NCBI RefSeq assembly: GCF_003334255.1
Contig: NZ_QOWU01000016.1
Direction: 5' to 3' (one strand)
DNA from: Escherichia coli
GTDB taxonomy: Bacteria; Pseudomonadota; Gammaproteobacteria; Enterobacterales; Enterobacteriaceae
Length of the DNA stretch: 64,000 nucleotides
Under the pieces are notes generated by a model. The model was given only the letters and a program-made list of their open reading frames with translations. It was not told the origin of the DNA and searched no databases. The stretch's first letter is position 1. Every line of letters starts with the position of its first letter. Both the position numbers and the translations under genes were made by a program. Shown piece by piece: positions 41,368 through 62,912 of the stretch.

Positions 41368-42621
41368 ATGACATTCTCCCTTTTTGGTGACAAATTTACC
41401 CGCCACTCCGGCATTACGCTGTTGATGGAAGATCTGAACGACGGTTTACGCACGCCTGGCGCGATTATGCTCGGCGGCGGTAATCCGGCGCAGATCCCGG
41501 AAATGCAGGACTACTTCCAGACGCTACTGACCGACATGCTGGAAAGTGGCAAAGCGACTGATGCACTGTGTAACTACGACGGTCCACAGGGGAAAACGGA
41601 GCTACTCACACTGCTTGCCGGAATGCTGCGCGAGAAGTTGGGTTGGGATATCGAACCACAGAATATTGCACTAACAAACGGCAGCCAGAGCGCGTTTTTC
41701 TACTTATTTAACCTGTTTGCCGGACGCCGTGCCGATGGTCGGGTCAAAAAAGTGCTGTTCCCGCTTGCACCGGAATACATTGGCTATGCTGACGCCGGAC
41801 TGGAAGAAGATCTGTTTGTCTCTGCGCGTCCGAATATTGAACTGCTGCCGGAAGGCCAGTTTAAATACCACGTCGATTTTGAGCATCTGCATATTGGCGA
41901 AGAAACCGGGATGATTTGCGTCTCCCGGCCGACGAATCCAACAGGCAATGTGATTACTGACGAAGAGTTGCTGAAGCTTGACGCGCTGGCGAATCAACAC
42001 GGCATTCCGCTGGTGATTGATAACGCTTATGGCGTCCCGTTCCCGGGTATCATCTTCAGTGAAGCGCGCCCGCTATGGAATCCGAATATCGTGCTGTGCA
42101 TGAGTCTTTCCAAGCTGGGTCTACCTGGCTCCCGCTGCGGCATTATCATCGCCAATGAAAAAATCATCACCGCCATCACCAATATGAACGGCATTATCAG
42201 CCTGGCACCTGGCGGTATTGGTCCGGCGATGATGTGTGAAATGATTAAGCGTAACGATCTGCTGCGCCTGTCTGAAACAGTCATCAAACCGTTTTACTAC
42301 CAGCGTGTTCAGGAAACTATCGCCATCATTCGCCGCTATTTACCGGAAAATCGCTGCCTGATTCATAAACCGGAAGGAGCCATTTTCCTCTGGCTATGGT
42401 TTAAGGATTTGCCCATTACGACCGAGCAGCTCTATCAGCGCCTGAAAGCACGCGGCGTGCTGATGGTGCCGGGGCACAACTTCTTCCCAGGGCTGGATAA
42501 ACCGTGGCCGCATACGCATCAATGTATGCGCATGAACTACGTACCAGAGCCGGAGAAAATTGAGGCGGGGGTGAAGATTCTGGCGGAAGAGATAGAAAGA
42601 GCCTGGGCTGAAAGTCACTAA
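41368..42621 (+). CDS. avtA: Valine--pyruvate aminotransferase AvtA (417 aa)
   Basis: ATG at 41368 gives MTFSLFGDKFTRHSGITLLMEDL...; PLP-lysine motif region (SLSKLGLPGSRCG). Confidence 0.9.
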   Translation: MTFSLFGDKFTRHSGITLLMEDLNDGLRTPGAIMLGGGNPAQIPEMQDYFQTLLTDMLESGKATDALCNYDGPQGKTELLTLLAGMLREKLGWDIEPQNIALTNGSQSAFFYLFNLFAGRRADGRVKKVLFPLAPEYIGYADAGLEEDLFVSARPNIELLPEGQFKYHVDFEHLHIGEETGMICVSRPTNPTGNVITDEELLKLDALANQHGIPLVIDNAYGVPFPGIIFSEARPLWNPNIVLCMSLSKLGLPGSRCGIIIANEKIITAITNMNGIISLAPGGIGPAMMCEMIKRNDLLRLSETVIKPFYYQRVQETIAIIRRYLPENRCLIHKPEGAIFLWLWFKDLPITTEQLYQRLKARGVLMVPGHNFFPGLDKPWPHTHQCMRMNYVPEPEKIEAGVKILAEEIERAWAESH

Positions 42622-42624
42622 AAA

Positions 42625-42745
42625 TTGCCTGATGCGCTACGCTTATCAGGCCTACATGATTTCTGCAATATATTGAATTTGGAAGAATTTGTAGGCCGGA
42701 TAAGGCGTTTACGCCGCATCTGGCATAAACAAAGCGCACTGTTCC
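42625..42745. repeat. REP/BIME elements between avtA and ysaA
   Basis: gcctgatgcgctacgcttatcaggcctac and ggccggataaggcgtttacgccgcatctggc motifs. Confidence 0.55.
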
Positions 42746-42771
42746 GGCGTTGAGAAACGCCGGAAAACGTT

Positions 42772-43245
42772 TCAAACAGGCTGCTGCCGTAGCCGATGCC
42801 GCTGCACTTTCTCGACATCCATGCACTGCAACGCCTTTGTCGGGCAGGCTTCAACACAGGCCGGTCCCGTCTCCCGATGCCAGCACAGATCGCACTTAAT
42901 CGCCCTCGCCTTTTTGCGCGAAGAAACGACCTCCATCGCACCAAACGGGCAAGCCAGCATACAGCTTTTACAGCCAATGCAACGTGTTTGTTCAACGAAA
43001 ATATGCCCATGTTCGCGGCTTATCGCGTCAACAGGGCAGACATTCGCGCACGGTGCATCTTCACACTGATGACAGGCTACTGCCGTGGTCCAGCAGTGGT
43101 CTTTAATGACACGAATACGGGAAATAAACTCGTCTGGTGACAACGCAGCGCAATCCTGATTCTCATGATGCGACACTGCGCAAGCCACTTCACAGGTACG
43201 GCAACCGATACATTTCGTCGCATCCGCAATAATAAACCGGTTCAT
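42772..43245 (-). CDS. ysaA: 4Fe-4S ferredoxin-type protein YsaA (HycB/HydN-like electron-transfer subunit, 157 aa)
   Basis: ATG at 43243-43245 (MNRFIIADATKCIGCRTCEVAC...); multiple Cys clusters read in the translation. Confidence 0.8.
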   Translation of the reverse strand: MNRFIIADATKCIGCRTCEVACAVSHHENQDCAALSPDEFISRIRVIKDHCWTTAVACHQCEDAPCANVCPVDAISREHGHIFVEQTRCIGCKSCMLACPFGAMEVVSSRKKARAIKCDLCWHRETGPACVEACPTKALQCMDVEKVQRHRLRQQPV

Positions 43246-43346
43246 GATCACTCCTTTGCACTAAAACAGCAGAGTGCCAGAGAGCGCGTCCCTACTGCTT
43301 TGATCCAACGAAGGAAATGTTAAAGTTTTGGCACTTGTCCAAAGCG

Positions 43347-44195
43347 TTATGTGATCGCGCCCAGGTCATCCCTGACAGTAAATCCCAGTTCATTAGAAAT
43401 AGCCTGCGCGGTTTCACGCAGTGGTTTCAGGAGATTTTTCTCTCCCACCTGTTTCAGACGTGATGTCGAAAGCGAAATCGACACGGCGTACGGCACCCGC
43501 CCATGAATATCAAACACCGGAACAGCAATACAGGAGACGCCGAGTTCGTTTTCTTCTCTGTCCATCGCCGCTCCGCTTTCACGAATGTGCGCCAGTTCGT
43601 CGAACATCGCGGGCAGCTCGGTAATGGTATTGCGGGTTAACGGCTGGATCTCATGCTGATGGCTTTCCCAGTATGACTTCACGTAGTCCGGGTGACCAAA
43701 CGCCATGTAGATCTTGCCCATTGCGGAACAGTAGAGCGGCATATGCTGGCCAATATAGGCACGGGTTCGCAGCATCCCGGTTGTGGGTTCCAGCTTATAA
43801 ATCAAAATAGCGTGATCGTCTTCGCGGCTGGAGAAGTTAATGGTTTCACCAGTGGCGATGTTCAGTGCCTCAAGATGCGGAGCGGCGATATGAATGATAT
43901 TCAGCGAAGACAGCGCCTTCTGCCCGACGGCAATAAATTTGGTGGTCAGGCGATAACTCCCTGCGGCAGGCGCGGTGGTCACATAGCCGCAGGACTGTAA
44001 TCCCTGCAATAAGCGATGGACGGTACTCTTATTTAAACCAGCCAGCTCCGAAAGATGCGCCAACGGACAACCGTTTGGATAGTTGCTCAAAATCTCAATC
44101 AGCATCAACCCGCGAAACAGACTCTGGCTTCCGGCTGGACGCTCTTTTTCCTGCGCCATCTCGTTCTCTTTTTTTCCCATCACTTCTTTCCCCAT
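43347..44195 (-). CDS. yiaJ: IclR-family transcriptional repressor YiaJ/PlaR (282 aa)
   Basis: 282-aa ORF with N-terminal HTH (…LAHLSELAGLNKSTVHRLLQGL…), divergent from yiaK. Confidence 0.9.
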   Translation of the reverse strand: MGKEVMGKKENEMAQEKERPAGSQSLFRGLMLIEILSNYPNGCPLAHLSELAGLNKSTVHRLLQGLQSCGYVTTAPAAGSYRLTTKFIAVGQKALSSLNIIHIAAPHLEALNIATGETINFSSREDDHAILIYKLEPTTGMLRTRAYIGQHMPLYCSAMGKIYMAFGHPDYVKSYWESHQHEIQPLTRNTITELPAMFDELAHIRESGAAMDREENELGVSCIAVPVFDIHGRVPYAVSISLSTSRLKQVGEKNLLKPLRETAQAISNELGFTVRDDLGAIT

Positions 44196-52475: not shown

Positions 52476-52790
52476 CTACGAATTGATATGTTCCTTGCTG
52501 TAACGCCGCTTCCACGCTGCTGGCGTTAAACCAGTATGTTTCTGAAAAATCTGCCGGAAATAGCCAACGTCATTAAACCGTATTGCATGGAGCAGGCCGA
52601 CAACGTCGAGTCACTGCATAACCTGTTGCTGCCCGCCGATGCGCCATTTACGACATTTGAAGGCAAGGGATTGTTCAGCCATAAGATCCTGATTCAGACG
52701 CCAGGTTCCCGGTATGAACAGAGCAATCCAGAGCAACAACCTTTGTGGCATTACGACGGAGCACCAGCCGCACCGACATCCACCGGTGAA
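52476..52790 (-). pseudogene. Remnant of an AraC/XylS-family regulator: C-terminal HTH region only, broken by an in-frame TGA
   Basis: Minus-strand translation by hand: …NQDLMAEQSLAFKCRKWRIGGQQQVMQ*LDVVGLLHAIRFNDVGYFRQIFQKHTGLTPAAWKRRYSKEHINS*; no N-terminal domain or start codon; abuts the yiaT stop. Confidence 0.45.
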
Positions 52791-59679: not shown

Positions 59680-61524
59680 TTATTTTTCCGGAAATAATAA
59701 TGCGTCGCGCAATAAATGATCATTTCCACGACGACGCGTAAAGCCAATGCGGTCAAAATATTCCAGAATCTGAATTGCCAGCTTTCGGCCTACGCCTAAG
59801 CGATCGCGGAAATCCGCCGCGCAGGTTGAACCACACTCCTGATCGAGATCGCGGATCATATTGGCAAACTCGACAATCCGATCGTTACGGTAATAACGAT
59901 CTTTAACGATCGCGGTAATTATTCCTTGCTGCGCCGCCTGGCGTAGAGTCAGGCGCATTGCCTGCTCGTCGGTTCCCGTCTCTTTTGCCAGGTCACGCAC
60001 CCACCACGGTTCGTCACCAAACAGTGGCTCTGCTTTTTGCCAGATGGCCTGCTGCTCTTCGCTGAAGCCCGCTTTGTGATCTGGCAGATGCAGCCAGCCG
60101 TGATGGCTGTGGATGTCGCCGCTTTCGCGCATCTTTTCAATCAGCAACAGTACCAGCGCTTCATCTTCCATTGGCAACGCCATACGTCGCAGACGTTCGC
60201 GCCCAGGGCCAGGTTCATCGCGATGTTGCTCATGATAAGTCGCTAATGTGTCGAGAATTTTCCGCTGCCAGCGGGCGGCAACCGGCGCATTCAACAAGCT
60301 ATAACCAGCCTGAATATAACCAGGCTGTTGCAGCAATTCGCGCATCCCTTCGCCGTTGAGCTGGCGCGCCCAGGCGAAATCCGCAAGGTTAACCGCGCCG
60401 CGTTCCAGATGAACAGATAACGCATCGGCATCGCTCTGCGCCCGTGCAAGAGACGCCAGCCATTGCAGATATTCCGGCTTACGTTTACCGCGACGCGGCG
60501 GGTTAAGCATCACGACGCGCGCTCCGGCCAGCGTGTTGCGGGCAGAGATATCGCGCAATACCAGGCGGTCGTTATCTGCCAGCCATAACGGGGTGTCGAA
60601 GACCAGTTCAGCAAGGTTATCTTCCAGCAGTGAAACGCGTCCCGTGACGTGGCTGGCGGCGTGGTGAATATGCAGCGGCTGCCACTGGGTCAGCGGTGTA
60701 TGGGTTTGAAGCTCGACAATCACCCGTGTGAACGGCTCTGGCGGCACATCGGCAAGCAGCCAGTCGCCACGGTTAATCTGCTCTTTTTCCGCATCACCCG
60801 CGATGTTAAGCGCGATACGCTGCCCGGCATTGGCGGTTTCTGTTGGCTGGTTTTGCGCATGCAGCGCACGTACACGCATCGGTTTATTTACACCAGTCAG
60901 CCAGAGTGAATCGCCTACCTTCACTTCCCCGCTTAACGCCGTACCGGTGACGACCAGCCCGGCACCTTTTACGGTAAATGCGCGGTCAATCGCGAGGCGG
61001 AAACTATGTTGGCTGGCGTGCTCGCGTTCCGGCAACTGAAGCAGATGCTCGCGCAGGGCATCCATTCCCCGACCTTCGGTTGCTGCGGTGATAAACAGTT
61101 TTGCCTCAGCAAAACCGTATTCCCGCAGAACCTCCTTTACCTGGCGTTCAACCTCATCAACACGCGCTTCGTCCACGCGATCGGCTTTGGTCAGCGCCAC
61201 TGTCAGCATCGGGTTACCGGTCAGCTGCAAAATCGCCAGATGCTCACGGGTCTGTGCCATCACGCCGTCATCGCACGCCACCACCAACAGCGCGTGATCG
61301 ATACCACCAACGCCCGCCAGCATGTTGGAAAGAAACTTTTCATGACCGGGAACGTCGATAAAACCAGGCACGCGACCATCCGGCTGCGGCCAGTAGGCAT
61401 AGCCGAGATCGATGGTCATGCCGCGCTTTTTTTCTTCCGGCAGACGGTCAGCATTTACGCCAGTAATCGCCTGCAATAAGGTTGTTTTGCCGTGGTCAAC
61501 GTGTCCGGCAGTCGCAATAATCAT
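59680..61524 (-). CDS. selB: Selenocysteine-specific elongation factor SelB (614 aa)
   Basis: GTPase G1 motif [10 protein letters not shown] at N-terminus; 4-nt overlap with selA. Confidence 0.95.
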
Positions 61525-62912
61525 TTCAACAACATCTCCAAAAACCGTTGCTCATCTTCAAGGCAGCGTAAATCCAGCCACAATCGTCCGTCATAAATAC
61601 GACCAATCACCGGCACTGGCAATTCACGCCAGCGGGCGGCTAATGACTCAAGGTGGCTACCGCGTCCATCATGGGGTGTAAACGTTAATGCCGCGCTCGG
61701 CAGGCGATCAACCGGCAGCGAACCACTGCCAATCTGCGAAAGACATGGCATAACCTGTACCGCAAACTCCGCGCCGTAATGTGCGGCAAGGGGGGCCTGT
61801 AAACGTTGTGCCTGGATTTGAATGACCTCTGCGCTGCGGGTAAGCAGGCGCAGGGTCGGTAATTTTTCACTCAGAGCTTCAGGGTGTAAATAAAGACGCA
61901 ACGTGGCTTCCAGCGCCGCGAGGGTCATTTTATCCGCGCGTAATGCACGCTTCAGCGGGTGGCTTTGCAGGCGGGCGATCATCTCTTTTTTACCAACAAT
62001 AATTCCTGCCTGCGGCCCGCCTAACAACTTGTCGCCGGAGAAACTCACCAGACTGACGCCCGCCGCAATCAACTCCTGCGGCATTGGCTCTTTCGGCAAA
62101 CCGTACTGGCTAAGATCGACCAGCGAGCCACTGCCTAAATCAGTCACTACGGGAACATCCAGCTCTTTGCCGAGCGCCACCAGTTCCGCTTCATCTATCG
62201 CTTTGGTGAACCCCTGAATGCTGTAGTTACTGGTATGTACTTTCATCAACAGTGCGGTATTTTCATTCACCGCCTGACGATAATCATTCGCGTGCGTGCG
62301 GTTGGTGGTCCCTACTTCGTGTAGGGTGCAGCCTGCCTGACGCATAACATCGGGAATACGAAACGCGCCGCCAATCTCCACCAGTTCGCCGCGAGATACC
62401 ACCACCTCTTTTCCGCTGGCAGTGGCCGCCAACATCAATAACACCGCCGCCGCATTGTTATTGACGATACAGGCATCTTCCGCCCCCGTAATACGGCACA
62501 GCAGCTGCGCCAGCGCCCGATCGCGATGTCCGCGTCCGGCGTCGTCCAGATCATACTCGAGGGTCACTGGCGAACGCATAGCCTGCGCAACGGCTTCCAC
62601 CGCGGCTTCCGCCTGTAAAGCTCGCCCAAGGTTGGTATGCAGCACGGTTCCCGTCAGGTTGATCACCGGACGCAGCGCGCTCTGCGCTTCTTTCGTCAAC
62701 CGGGCATCGACTTCTTGCGCCCAGTTTTCACACCACGCAGGCAGCGTCTGGCTGCCACGAATCACTTCTCGCGCTTCGTCGAGCATCTGACGCAACAATT
62801 CCACCACGCGGGTGTGACCATAAGTATCACGCAAAGAAAGGAAGGAGCTATCGCGCAATAAGCGATCAATAGCCGGAAGTTGACTATAGAGGGAACGCGT
62901 TTCGGTTGTCAT
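61521..62912 (-). CDS. selA: L-seryl-tRNA(Sec) selenium transferase SelA (463 aa)
   Basis: 463-aa [24 protein letters not shown]...; ATG verified at 62910-62912. Confidence 0.95.

What the first reader, a model, noticed from the sequence alone, without database searches (positions are those of the whole stretch)
42772..43245. Orphan HycB-like 4Fe-4S ferredoxin gene ysaA with no partner catalytic subunit
ysaA encodes a poly-ferredoxin of the type that normally wires electrons into hydrogenase or formate dehydrogenase complexes, yet it sits alone between avtA and the yiaJ regulator, flanked by REP elements. An electron-transfer subunit without a neighbouring catalytic partner implies it works in trans with a complex encoded elsewhere or is a relic.
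Basis: inference. Interest (0 to 1): 0.25.

Follow-up and report, generated by a model that had tools for sequence, protein, structure and literature searches.

The report
Known stand-alone ferredoxin gene ysaA
This is the already studied E. coli gene ysaA, an intact iron-sulfur electron-carrier protein that is encoded away from any enzyme partner and has been shown by others to work at a distance with formate dehydrogenase H, so the finding is correct but ordinary.

Summary
The ORF exists at 42772-43245 on the minus strand. It is E. coli ysaA (157 aa), convergent with avtA and downstream of yiaJ. It has four cysteine groups (16 Cys) that are invariant in 35 YsaA orthologues, 46 HydN orthologues and 5 paralogues. 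Its nearest relative is HydN (65% identity), not HycB (48%). The best solved match is HycB of formate hydrogenlyase.

The "orphan" status holds: none of 34 orthologous loci in other Enterobacteriaceae has fdhF or hycE within 10 kb. By contrast, hydN sits directly upstream of a Cys-type fdhF paralogue in 25 of 45 loci. REP elements lie only on the avtA side.

The gene is not a relic. It is full-length and single-copy in 5424 of 5426 complete E. coli genomes, and its dN/dS is 0.05-0.16.

The ysaA deletion cuts FDH-H dye-linked activity to 57% (28% with hydN also deleted) without changing H2 output. In two-hybrid tests YsaA binds FdhF weakly and HycB, HydN and AegA strongly.

Three minor points may be new:
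- selAB lies directly upstream of ysaA in Kosakonia-like genomes.
- A conserved upstream DNA block of about 70 nt travels with ysaA.
- YsaA lacks the HycB docking loop.

Verdict: already known, low interest.

The parts
42772..43245 (-). ysaA coding sequence (157 aa plus stop); four-[4Fe-4S]-type ferredoxin-like protein
   Evidence: ORF and Cys groups. (annotated ysaA in E. coli). (HydN, AegA and Fer4_11 family matches; HycB in the PDB). (AlphaFold2 model, pLDDT 80; best folds are HDCR HycB3 and E. coli HycB).
43251..43256 (-). Shine-Dalgarno sequence AAGGAG, 5 nt upstream of the ATG
   Evidence: Read directly. It supports the ATG at 43245 over the GTG at 43251.
43263..43331 (-). Conserved upstream DNA block that travels with ysaA: TGCCAAAA (TGACAAAA in most genera) .. 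TTTCC .. GGATCAAAGC (GATCAA at 43300-43305) - N16 - TCTCTGGCACTCTG (43270-43283) - N3 - TTTT (43263-43266). Probably ysaA's own promoter or operator region; the factor is unknown.
   Evidence: Alignment A2 of 19 genera: GATCAA and TC.G are invariant and the remaining positions of TCTGGCA are at least 90% conserved, whatever gene lies upstream (yiaJ, AraC-type, selB, yiaT, aldB). No conserved RNA structure. Weak RpoE-holoenzyme SELEX peak in this spacer (PMC5493296).
42742..42765 (-). Perfect 10-bp stem, 4-nt loop hairpin starting 7 nt after the ysaA stop codon; a likely transcript 3' end, but it lacks a proper T-run
   Evidence: inverted repeat I4. (centroid -15.9 kcal/mol, z = -2.2). The terminator scan did not call it.
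42626..42656 (+). REP element, first arm of a BIME in the avtA-ysaA gap
   Evidence: arms I1 and I3 pair with the second REP. Sequence read.
42691..42724 (-). REP element, second arm of the BIME
   Evidence: 1 mismatch to the REP pattern. There are 5 matches in the window against 0 expected.
41368..42621 (+). avtA (valine-pyruvate transaminase), convergent neighbour; this adjacency is the conserved one
   Evidence: avtA is adjacent in 32 of 34 orthologous loci.
43347..44195 (-). yiaJ (IclR-family regulator), upstream neighbour on the same strand; a variable neighbour across genera
   Evidence: yiaJ is the upstream gene in only 16 of 34 loci.
59683..62894 (-). selA-selB (selenocysteine incorporation), same strand as ysaA, 16.4 kb upstream here but directly upstream of ysaA (126-149 nt gap) in Kosakonia-like genomes
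   Evidence: (NCBIfam selA and selB equivalogs).

Best explanation
ysaA encodes a small soluble cytoplasmic electron-transfer protein. It has the HycB/HydN fold: two ferredoxin-like halves predicted to hold four [4Fe-4S] clusters in a chain.

It has no catalytic site of its own. It works in trans as an alternative small (beta-like) subunit of formate dehydrogenase H (FdhF). FdhF is itself encoded alone and binds its partners loosely. YsaA takes electrons from the FdhF cluster after formate oxidation and passes them to acceptors other than hydrogenase 3. It is partly redundant with its paralogue HydN. The best acceptor candidates are the related ferredoxin-domain flavoenzymes AegA and YgfT (formate-dependent urate utilisation) or other HycB-like proteins.

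YsaA lacks the long loop with which HycB docks onto HycF and HycE. That fits its absence from the purified formate hydrogenlyase complex.

Status of each step:
- Shown here: the fold and family, the complete cysteine ligand set, purifying selection, and the orphan genomic context.
- Shown by others: the FDH-H activity phenotype and the two-hybrid contacts.
- Inferred: actual cluster content, the direction of electron flow, and the identity of the acceptor.
For: Family and cofactor sites:
- All 16 Cys in four groups are invariant in 35 YsaA, 46 HydN and 5 paralogues.
- HydN is 65% identical, the AegA N-terminal domain 51%, HycB 48%.
- Top NCBIfam hits are HydN, AegA and YgfT.
- HycB chain 7z0s_B matches at 2.8e-36 and HDCR HycB3/HycB4 at about 1e-34.
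- The AlphaFold2 model (pLDDT 80) matches 7qv7_A and 7z0s_B with TM about 0.67.

Action in trans on FdhF (PMC6004506):
- FDH-H activity is 57% in the ysaA deletion, 28% with hydN also deleted, and 1% in the triple mutant with hycB.
- The deletion is complemented by pysaA (91%) and by phydN (88%).
- Two-hybrid signals in Miller units: YsaA-FdhF 694, YsaA-AegA 5867/6150, YsaA-HydN 3072/4608, YsaA-HycB 3896/4215.
- YsaA is not found in purified FHL.
- FdhF is loosely bound and may interact with other proteins (PMC9474812).

Guilt by association for the family: the closest paralogue hydN lies directly upstream of an fdhF paralogue in 25 of 45 loci.

Docking loop: the stretch between Cys groups 3 and 4 is 18 aa in YsaA, 31 in HydN, 50 in HycB and 53 in HyfA. 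In HycB this loop contacts HycF and HycE (PMC9474812).

A functional gene: dN/dS is 0.05-0.16, and it is present in 5424 of 5426 E. coli genomes.
Against: - The YsaA-FdhF two-hybrid signal (694 MU) is only just above the paper's 600 MU threshold and was seen in one orientation. The author warns that these ferredoxins can interact non-specifically.
- The phenotype is a partial loss of an artificial dye-linked activity. No physiological defect or acceptor is known.
- No biochemical proof exists of cluster content or electron transfer.
- ysaA lacks the sigma54/FhlA promoter of the formate regulon that hydN, hyc and hyp carry, so it is not co-regulated with fdhF by that route.
- YsaA evolves 5-15 times faster at non-synonymous sites than HydN, which could mean a less constrained or marginal role.
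- The gene is lost in Shigella sonnei lineages 2 and 3 within a 22-kb deletion.
Confidence: 0.6

Rival explanations
1. YsaA is a plain backup copy of HydN with no acceptor of its own. Both paralogues do the same job, and ysaA persists under weak selection as a redundant gene.
For: The ysaA deletion is fully complemented by hydN, and the two deletions are additive. The proteins are 65% identical with identical ligand sets. dN is 5-15 times higher than in hydN between the same species pairs.
Against: pysaA does not complement the hydN deletion and even lowers its activity, so the functions are not identical. The two differ consistently in the loop between Cys groups 3 and 4 (18 aa against 31) and in tail length across 35 and 46 orthologues. 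Their promoters differ: sigma54/FhlA for hydN, a different conserved block for ysaA. The two lineages are old: HydN is monophyletic in 82% of bootstraps with YsaA outside it. ysaA is kept in almost every E. coli genome.
Confidence: 0.15
2. YsaA is a transient assembly or maturation helper of FDH-H. It would hold or activate FdhF before FdhF joins the complex, rather than act as an electron conduit.
For: The deletion lowers FDH-H activity without changing FdhF protein level. The weak, orientation-dependent two-hybrid signal could reflect a transient contact. In the minimal gene order ysaA lies directly downstream of selAB, which is selenoprotein biogenesis.
Against: H2 production, which needs mature FdhF, is unchanged in single and double mutants. 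Other Mo-bis-PGD enzymes are unaffected, and the author judged a maturation role unlikely because the phenotype is mild. A full set of 16 conserved cluster ligands and a HycB-like fold are what an electron wire needs.
Confidence: 0.12
3. YsaA serves its local neighbours. For example, it could be co-expressed with yiaJ and feed or drain electrons for the yiaK-sgbE sugar-acid pathway.
For: yiaJ is upstream on the same strand with only a 101-nt gap, and no terminator was found in that gap. In Enterobacter and Lelliottia the yiaJ stop lies 3 nt from the ysaA ATG, so the two are probably co-transcribed there.
Against: The upstream neighbour changes between genera: yiaJ 16, AraC-type 10, selB 4, yiaT 2, aldB 1 of 34. 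The ysaA upstream block and the avtA adjacency stay the same. None of the yia/sgb products is annotated as an Fe-S-dependent oxidoreductase.
Confidence: 0.03
4. ysaA is a decaying relic of a former formate hydrogenlyase or hydN-fdhF cluster that once lay next to avtA.
For: In Cedecea, Buttiauxella and 'Enterobacter sp. Ag1' the order is hyc-hycI-hydN-fdhF-hypF-nickel transporter-avtA-malS. That puts hydN in the same orientation and on the same side of avtA as ysaA in E. coli.
Against: The ORF is intact in all 34 orthologous loci, 16 of 16 ligand Cys are invariant, and dN/dS is 0.05-0.16. A YsaA clade nested within Enterobacteriaceae HydN is recovered in only 2% of bootstraps. The other flank of the Cedecea cluster is fhlA, HNH, cheW-like and sodA, not selAB. 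A deletion phenotype exists.
Confidence: 0.02

Closest known systems
HydN of E. coli (b2713; NCBIfam NF007658)
   Same: Closest paralogue, 65% identical. It has the same four Cys groups and the same N-terminus MNRFIIAD. Its deletion gives the same phenotype, partial loss of FDH-H dye-linked activity. It also interacts with FdhF, HycB and AegA in two-hybrid tests.
   Different: YsaA scores 214.6 bits, below the HydN equivalog cut-off of 260. Its loop between Cys groups 3 and 4 is 18 aa against 31, and its C-terminal tail is shorter. hydN has a sigma54 promoter with an FhlA upstream site and sits with hypF, hyc and (in 25 of 45 loci) a Cys-type fdhF. ysaA has none of these. pysaA does not complement the hydN deletion. 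YsaA evolves much faster.
HycB, small subunit of FDH-H in formate hydrogenlyase (PDB 7Z0S/7Z0T chain B)
   Same: Best solved-structure match (E = 2.8e-36, 48% identity). The ligand pattern for four [4Fe-4S] clusters is the same, and the predicted fold superposes (TM 0.68). Both contact FdhF.
   Different: HycB is encoded in the hyc operon and is essential for H2 production. YsaA is not. YsaA lacks about 32 residues of the loop that in HycB binds HycF and HycE. YsaA is absent from purified FHL.
N-terminal ferredoxin domains of AegA and YgfT, and YgfS (formate-dependent uric acid utilisation proteins)
   Same: They are 46-51% identical with the same 16 Cys. Their loops between Cys groups 3 and 4 are short (14-23 aa), like that of YsaA. 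AegA gave the strongest YsaA two-hybrid signals.
   Different: AegA and YgfT carry a large C-terminal glutamate-synthase-like flavoenzyme domain, whereas YsaA is the ferredoxin module alone. The aegA deletion does not affect FDH-H activity, and AegA does not bind FdhF.
HycB3/HycB4 of hydrogen-dependent CO2 reductase (PDB 7QV7) and polyferredoxin subunits of tungsten aldehyde oxidoreductases (8C0Z, 9MQX)
   Same: Top fold and sequence matches. They are small four-cluster ferredoxins that link a formate dehydrogenase or tungsten enzyme to another redox module. YsaA also shows strong self- and cross-interactions with its paralogues.
   Different: No such assembly has been shown for YsaA.
Classical beta subunits FdnH, NrfC, PsrB, DmsB
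   Same: They share the Fer4_11 four-cluster architecture.
   Different: Much lower similarity (E = 1e-12 or weaker; 20-30% identity). They are co-encoded with their catalytic subunit, and some carry membrane anchors or extra domains.

Membership tests
HycB/HydN-type four-[4Fe-4S] ferredoxin-like small subunits (Pfam Fer4_11) | Four cysteine groups (16 Cys) with the family's spacing | tested here: met
   Groups at C12/15/18/22, C58/61/66/70, C89/92/95/99 and C118/121/130/134. All are invariant in the 7 E. coli paralogues and in 86 sequences.
HycB/HydN-type four-[4Fe-4S] ferredoxin-like small subunits (Pfam Fer4_11) | Significant sequence similarity to members with solved structures or curated models | tested here: met
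   7z0s_B at 2.8e-36 and 7qv7 chains A/B at about 1e-34. Pfam Fer4_11 at 1.8e-12. NCBIfam HydN at 7e-64.
HycB/HydN-type four-[4Fe-4S] ferredoxin-like small subunits (Pfam Fer4_11) | Predicted fold matches the family | tested here: met
   AlphaFold2 model with pLDDT 80.3 and pTM 0.75. Foldseek top hits are 7qv7_A and 7z0s_B, probability 1.0, TM 0.67-0.68.
HycB/HydN-type four-[4Fe-4S] ferredoxin-like small subunits (Pfam Fer4_11) | Actually binds Fe-S clusters and transfers electrons to or from a catalytic subunit | not testable with these tools
   Only indirect published evidence: the FDH-H activity phenotype and the two-hybrid contact with FdhF (PMC6004506).
HydN proper (NCBIfam NF007658 equivalog) | Whole-protein score at or above the curated cut-off of 260 bits | tested here: not met
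   214.6 bits. PGAP accordingly names it only '4Fe-4S dicluster domain-containing protein'.
HydN proper (NCBIfam NF007658 equivalog) | hydN genomic context: next to hypF, hyc or fdhF, with a sigma54 promoter and an FhlA upstream site | tested here: not met
   None of 34 ysaA loci has fdhF or hycE within 10 kb, against 40 of 45 hydN loci. The GG-N10-GC spacing is absent upstream of ysaA. The published sigma54 ChIP text lists hydN but never mentions ysaA or yiaJ.
HycB proper (formate hydrogenlyase subunit 2) | Long loop between the third and fourth Cys groups that docks on HycF and HycE | tested here: not met
   The loop is 18 aa in YsaA and 50 aa in HycB. The loop's role is taken from PMC9474812.
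HycB proper (formate hydrogenlyase subunit 2) | Required for H2 production and encoded in the hyc operon | tested here: not met
   ysaA is not in the hyc operon. H2 output is unchanged in the ysaA deletion according to PMC6004506; that part is literature, not my test.
Pseudogene / relic | Disrupted ORF, loss of essential residues, or neutral evolution (dN/dS near 1) | tested here: not met
   ORFs of 151-184 aa are intact in all 34 orthologous loci. All 16 ligand Cys are invariant. dN/dS is 0.045-0.16 where dS is below 1. The gene is full-length in 5424 of 5426 E. coli genomes.
REP/BIME-flanked gene | REP elements on both sides | tested here: not met
   Two REPs lie in the avtA-ysaA gap only. 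The ysaA-yiaJ gap has none.

The most novel reading that the evidence does not exclude
YsaA may be the dedicated off-complex partner of the selenocysteine-type FdhF, while HydN is the partner of the Cys-type FdhF paralogue.

The supporting pattern is genomic. In the minimal gene order (Kosakonia-like genomes) ysaA lies directly downstream of selAB, the selenocysteine machinery; by textbook knowledge, not tested here, its only E. coli clients are the formate dehydrogenases. All 25 fdhF copies adjacent to hydN are Cys-type, and the 9 non-adjacent copies in those loci are Sec-type.

On this reading YsaA, alone or in mixed HycB-like assemblies resembling the HDCR ferredoxin wires, would carry formate electrons from FdhF to AegA/YgfT-type flavoenzymes (urate or other reductive pathways) rather than to hydrogenase.
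Probability: 0.15. Interest if true: 0.45.

Novelty: already known. Interest (0 to 1): 0.13.

Why it matters
As stated, the finding adds nothing new. ysaA is a named E. coli K-12 gene, and its paralogy, deletion phenotype and interaction partners were published in 2018.

What stays open is where formate-derived electrons go when FdhF pairs with YsaA or HydN instead of HycB. Answering that would complete the map of formate use in enterobacteria beyond hydrogen production, for example formate-dependent urate breakdown in the gut.

My comparative observations give cheap handles for that question, but they are incremental:
- the selAB-ysaA adjacency
- the upstream DNA block that travels with ysaA
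- the missing HycB docking loop
- the hydN and Cys-type fdhF pairing

Tried and rejected
**1. Sigma54 promoter.** The conserved CTGGCAC upstream of ysaA looked like a -24 element. However, no GC lies 10 nt downstream, the variable triplet there is not conserved, and the implied start site would fall inside the Shine-Dalgarno sequence. The text of the sigma54 ChIP paper lists hydN, hycA, hypA and hyfA but never mentions ysaA or yiaJ. Rejected.

**2. FNR site.** Only a half-site (ATCAA within the invariant GATCAA) is present. The other half is absent in every genus. Not supported.

**3. Standard sigma70 promoter or intrinsic terminator in the yiaJ-ysaA gap.** The scan found neither.

**4. Conserved 5' leader RNA structure.** RNAalifold predicts no pairs on 19 genera. 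Rfam has no match in that gap.

**5. RpoE promoter.** GGATCAA-N16-TCTCT resembles the sigma-E layout only loosely. A published SELEX peak in this spacer is 4.2-fold against a 4.0 cut-off. Left as a weak lead.

**6. ysaA as a positional remnant of hydN.** The idea came from the Cedecea and Buttiauxella order hydN-fdhF-hypF-nickel transporter-avtA. The NJ tree does not nest YsaA inside Enterobacteriaceae HydN (2% of bootstraps), and the other flank in Cedecea is unrelated. NJ with strongly unequal rates is not decisive.

**7. Relic or pseudogene.** Rejected.

**8. Functional coupling to yiaJ and the yia operon.** Rejected because the upstream neighbour varies.

**9. Iwadate & Kato 2019 (PMC6509651).** The paper is not held in the library. 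I could not check whether ysaA or hydN were tested in urate degradation.
Full report
**Observation**

The window is E. coli chromosome. A 1.4-kb query around the finding is 100% identical to many E. coli genomes, and the 474-bp ORF is 100% identical to BW25113. The ORF lies on the minus strand at 42772-43245 and encodes 157 aa. It starts at the ATG at 43245, with AAGGAG five bases upstream. RefSeq annotates it as ysaA, '4Fe-4S dicluster domain-containing protein'. It is convergent with avtA and lies downstream of yiaJ on the same strand.

**What the protein is**

It has 19 cysteines, and 16 form four groups. Only the third group is the textbook CxxCxxCxxxCP. The first ends in CA, and the second and fourth have longer internal spacers. 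These variants are the family norm. All 16 Cys are invariant in an alignment with HydN, HycB, HyfA, YgfS and the N-terminal domains of AegA and YgfT. They are also invariant in 35 YsaA orthologues, 46 HydN orthologues and 5 outgroup paralogues.

Identity to YsaA is 65% for HydN, 51% for AegA-N, 48% for HycB, 47% for YgfS, 46% for YgfT-N and 42% for HyfA. Pfam gives Fer4_11. NCBIfam ranks HydN first, but at 214.6 bits, below the 260-bit cut-off, followed by AegA and YgfT. Among solved structures the best matches are HycB of the E. coli formate hydrogenlyase (7z0s_B, 2.8e-36) and HycB3/HycB4 of the hydrogen-dependent CO2 reductase. An AlphaFold2 model (pLDDT 80) finds the same structures by fold. 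So YsaA is a HycB/HydN-type four-cluster ferredoxin-like protein, closest to HydN.

One consistent structural difference stands out. The stretch between the third and fourth Cys groups is 18 aa in YsaA (34 of 35 orthologues), 31 in HydN, 50 in HycB and 53 in HyfA. [quoted passage not shown] YsaA therefore lacks the element that docks HycB on the hydrogenase module.

**Local anatomy**

REPs are on one side only. Two inverted REPs forming a BIME lie in the avtA-ysaA gap, at 42626-42656 and 42691-42724. The ysaA-yiaJ gap has none. A perfect 10-bp hairpin (42742-42765) follows the ysaA stop codon. Rfam places the sRNA family ES036 at 42648-42690 between the REPs, above its gathering score. The consensus scan found no sigma70-type promoter or terminator in the 101-nt yiaJ-ysaA gap.

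**Comparative context**

A scan of one genome per species returned 80 loci. I mapped E. coli reference proteins onto them, clustered the neighbouring ORFs and named the main clusters with NCBIfam.

Thirty-four loci carry a ysaA-type gene. All are in Enterobacteriaceae: Escherichia, Citrobacter, Enterobacter, Klebsiella, Kosakonia, Kluyvera, Leclercia, Silvania, Trabulsiella and others.
- 32 of 34 are convergent with avtA.
- None has fdhF or hycE within 10 kb.
- The upstream neighbour, always on the same strand, varies: yiaJ 16, an AraC-type regulator with a GPH transporter and a GH127-like hydrolase 10, selB 4, yiaT 2, aldB 1.

In Kosakonia and two related genomes the order is mtlA / yibF-selA-selB-ysaA / avtA-malS, with 126-149 nt between selB and ysaA. 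In the window, selB-selA-yibF lie on the same strand 16.4 kb upstream. K-12 also keeps annotated fragments of the AraC-type and GH127-like genes between sgbE/araD and yiaT. The region between selB and ysaA is therefore a variable island.

The 45 hydN-type loci look different. Forty have fdhF or hycE in the locus, and 25 have an fdhF paralogue immediately downstream of hydN. All 25 adjacent copies have Cys (TGC or TGT) at the selenocysteine position. The 9 non-adjacent fdhF copies in these loci have TGA. The family's partner is nonetheless visible through hydN.

**Upstream block**

About 70 nt upstream of ysaA are conserved in 19 genera whatever gene precedes them: TGACAAA .. TTTCC .. GGATCAAAGC - N16 - TCTCTGGCACTCTG - N3 - TTTT, with GATCAA invariant. 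The block has no conserved RNA structure. It does not fit a sigma54 promoter in spacing or position, and the sigma54 ChIP paper's text never mentions ysaA or yiaJ. It has only an FNR half-site. A genomic SELEX study reports a weak RpoE-holoenzyme peak (4.2 against a cut-off of 4.0) in this spacer (PMC5493296). In Enterobacter and Lelliottia the block is absent and the yiaJ stop lies 3 nt from the ysaA ATG. I read the block as ysaA's own promoter or operator region, with the factor unknown.

**Evolution**

An NJ tree with 200 bootstraps gives a monophyletic HydN, including Yersinia, Serratia and Proteus, in 82% of replicates. YsaA plus HydN group together in 80%. YsaA nested within Enterobacteriaceae HydN appears in only 2%.

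In Cedecea and Buttiauxella the hyc-hydN-fdhF-hypF-nickel transporter cluster sits next to avtA. That suggested ysaA might be a positional remnant of hydN. The tree does not support this, and neither does the other flank of the Cedecea cluster. Unequal rates make NJ indecisive on this point.

For species pairs with dS below 1, ysaA has dN/dS of 0.045-0.16, against 0.000-0.066 for hydN and 0.013-0.048 for avtA. Its dN is 5-15 times that of hydN in most pairs (about 2-fold in the two Silvania comparisons). ysaA is therefore under clear purifying selection that is weaker than for hydN. It is full-length and single-copy in 5424 of 5426 complete E. coli genomes. It is lost within a 22-kb deletion in Shigella sonnei lineages 2 and 3 (PMC12795559). 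It is not a relic.

**Literature**

- Phylogeny: YsaA and HydN are the closest pair among E. coli ferredoxin-like proteins, grouped with HycB, HyfA, AegA and YgfS/T.
- Deletion phenotypes: FDH-H benzyl-viologen activity is 57% in the ysaA deletion, 59% or 34% in the two hydN deletion strains, 28% in the double mutant, 10% in the hycB deletion and 1% in the triple mutant. [quoted passage not shown]
- Complementation: the ysaA deletion is rescued by ysaA or hydN. The hydN deletion is not rescued by either.
- Two-hybrid: YsaA-FdhF gives 694 MU (the paper counts more than 600 as real). Signals with AegA, HydN, HycB, HycF, HyfA and YsaA itself are strong.
- Other points: neither protein is found in purified FHL, and the paper cites 2.7-fold anaerobic induction of ysaA.

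Later papers cite this without adding data on YsaA. A 2025 review reports unpublished data that HydN is a structural component of FHL-2 in Trabulsiella.

**Mechanism**

The best-supported account has three parts.
- YsaA is a soluble four-cluster electron wire. Fold and ligands are shown here; cluster content is inferred.
- It binds FdhF in trans as an alternative small subunit. The genetics and two-hybrid data are published; direct transfer has not been shown.
- It passes formate electrons to something other than Hyd-3. This is inferred from the unchanged H2 output, the absence from FHL and the missing HycF/HycE docking loop.

AegA and YgfT are the leading acceptor candidates. AegA gave the strongest two-hybrid signals, and NCBIfam names both 'formate-dependent uric acid utilization protein'. 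I could not read the urate paper. The rival accounts are a redundant HydN backup, a transient FDH-H assembly factor, a local role with yiaJ and the yia operon, and a relic. The first two are less likely and the last two are largely excluded, as set out in the Rival explanations section.

**Verdict**

All of it is already known for a named K-12 gene. My additions are incremental: the orphan status holds in 34 of 34 loci, selAB-ysaA adjacency occurs in the minimal gene order, an upstream block travels with the gene, the docking loop is missing, hydN pairs with a Cys-type fdhF in 25 genomes, and selection was quantified. Interest is low.

Noticed in passing
window 42648-42690 (-), between the two REPs of the avtA-ysaA gap: Rfam family ES036 (CssrF sRNA) matches at 46.1 bits against a gathering score of 37.6. 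A REP-derived naRNA4-like match at 42694-42771 (+) falls below its threshold. A Shigella sonnei paper also lists 'ES036' between avtA and ysaA.
   Followed up: no
window 59683-62894 (-); loci L016, L017, L019 (selB stop to ysaA ATG 126-149 nt) and L052 (791 nt): selA-selB lies directly upstream of ysaA on the same strand in Kosakonia-like genomes and in Klebsiella oxytoca. In E. coli the same genes are 16.4 kb upstream, separated by a variable island (yiaY, aldB, yiaW-T, the yia/sgb operon, yiaJ). This links ysaA by position to the selenocysteine machinery that the formate dehydrogenases need.
   Followed up: partly
window 52476-52577 (-) and 52581-52772 (+): These are fragments of an AraC-family regulator gene and a GH127-like hydrolase gene, annotated as partial pseudogenes in BW25113. 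Intact copies of that cassette (AraC, GPH transporter, GH127) sit directly upstream of ysaA in 10 other genera. In E. coli the yiaJ-sgbE block appears to have displaced it.
   Followed up: partly
window 43263-43331 (-); alignment A2: An upstream DNA block of about 70 nt is conserved in 19 genera regardless of the upstream gene, with GATCAA invariant and CTCTGGCACTCTG (a direct repeat CTCTG-GCA-CTCTG) largely conserved. It shows no RNA structure and does not fit sigma54, FNR or standard sigma70 patterns. The only published hint is a weak RpoE SELEX peak.
   Followed up: partly
loci L032-L084 (hydN-type loci): All 25 fdhF paralogues immediately downstream of hydN have Cys (TGC or TGT) at the selenocysteine position and are about 66% identical to E. 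coli FdhF. The 9 other fdhF copies in these loci have TGA. Leclercia and Silvania carry both types within 6 kb: hydN, Cys-fdhF, hypF, then Sec-fdhF.
   Followed up: partly
loci L032, L033, L045, L059 (Enterobacter sp. Ag1, Cedecea, Buttiauxella); L086/L087: The whole hyp-hyc-hydN-fdhF-hypF cluster lies next to avtA-malS, on the side where ysaA sits in E. coli; a HoxN/NixA-type nickel transporter gene between hypF and avtA was called in three of these loci (not L045). In Cedecea the far flank is fhlA, an HNH gene, a cheW-like response regulator and sodA, so avtA marks a rearrangement breakpoint.
   Followed up: partly
loci L021, L029, L034, L058 (Enterobacter, Lelliottia): The yiaJ stop codon lies 3 nt from the ysaA ATG and the conserved upstream block is missing. 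ysaA is probably co-transcribed with the IclR-type regulator gene in these genera.
   Followed up: no
locus L005 (record titled E. coli SCPM-O-B-8794) compared with the window: This record differs from the window at dS of about 0.3 in ysaA, hydN and avtA, and its YsaA is only 92% identical. That is far more divergence than I would expect within E. coli (my expectation, not measured here), so it may belong to a cryptic Escherichia lineage.
   Followed up: no
window 42772-43245 (+ strand, antisense to ysaA): [quoted passage not shown]
   Followed up: no
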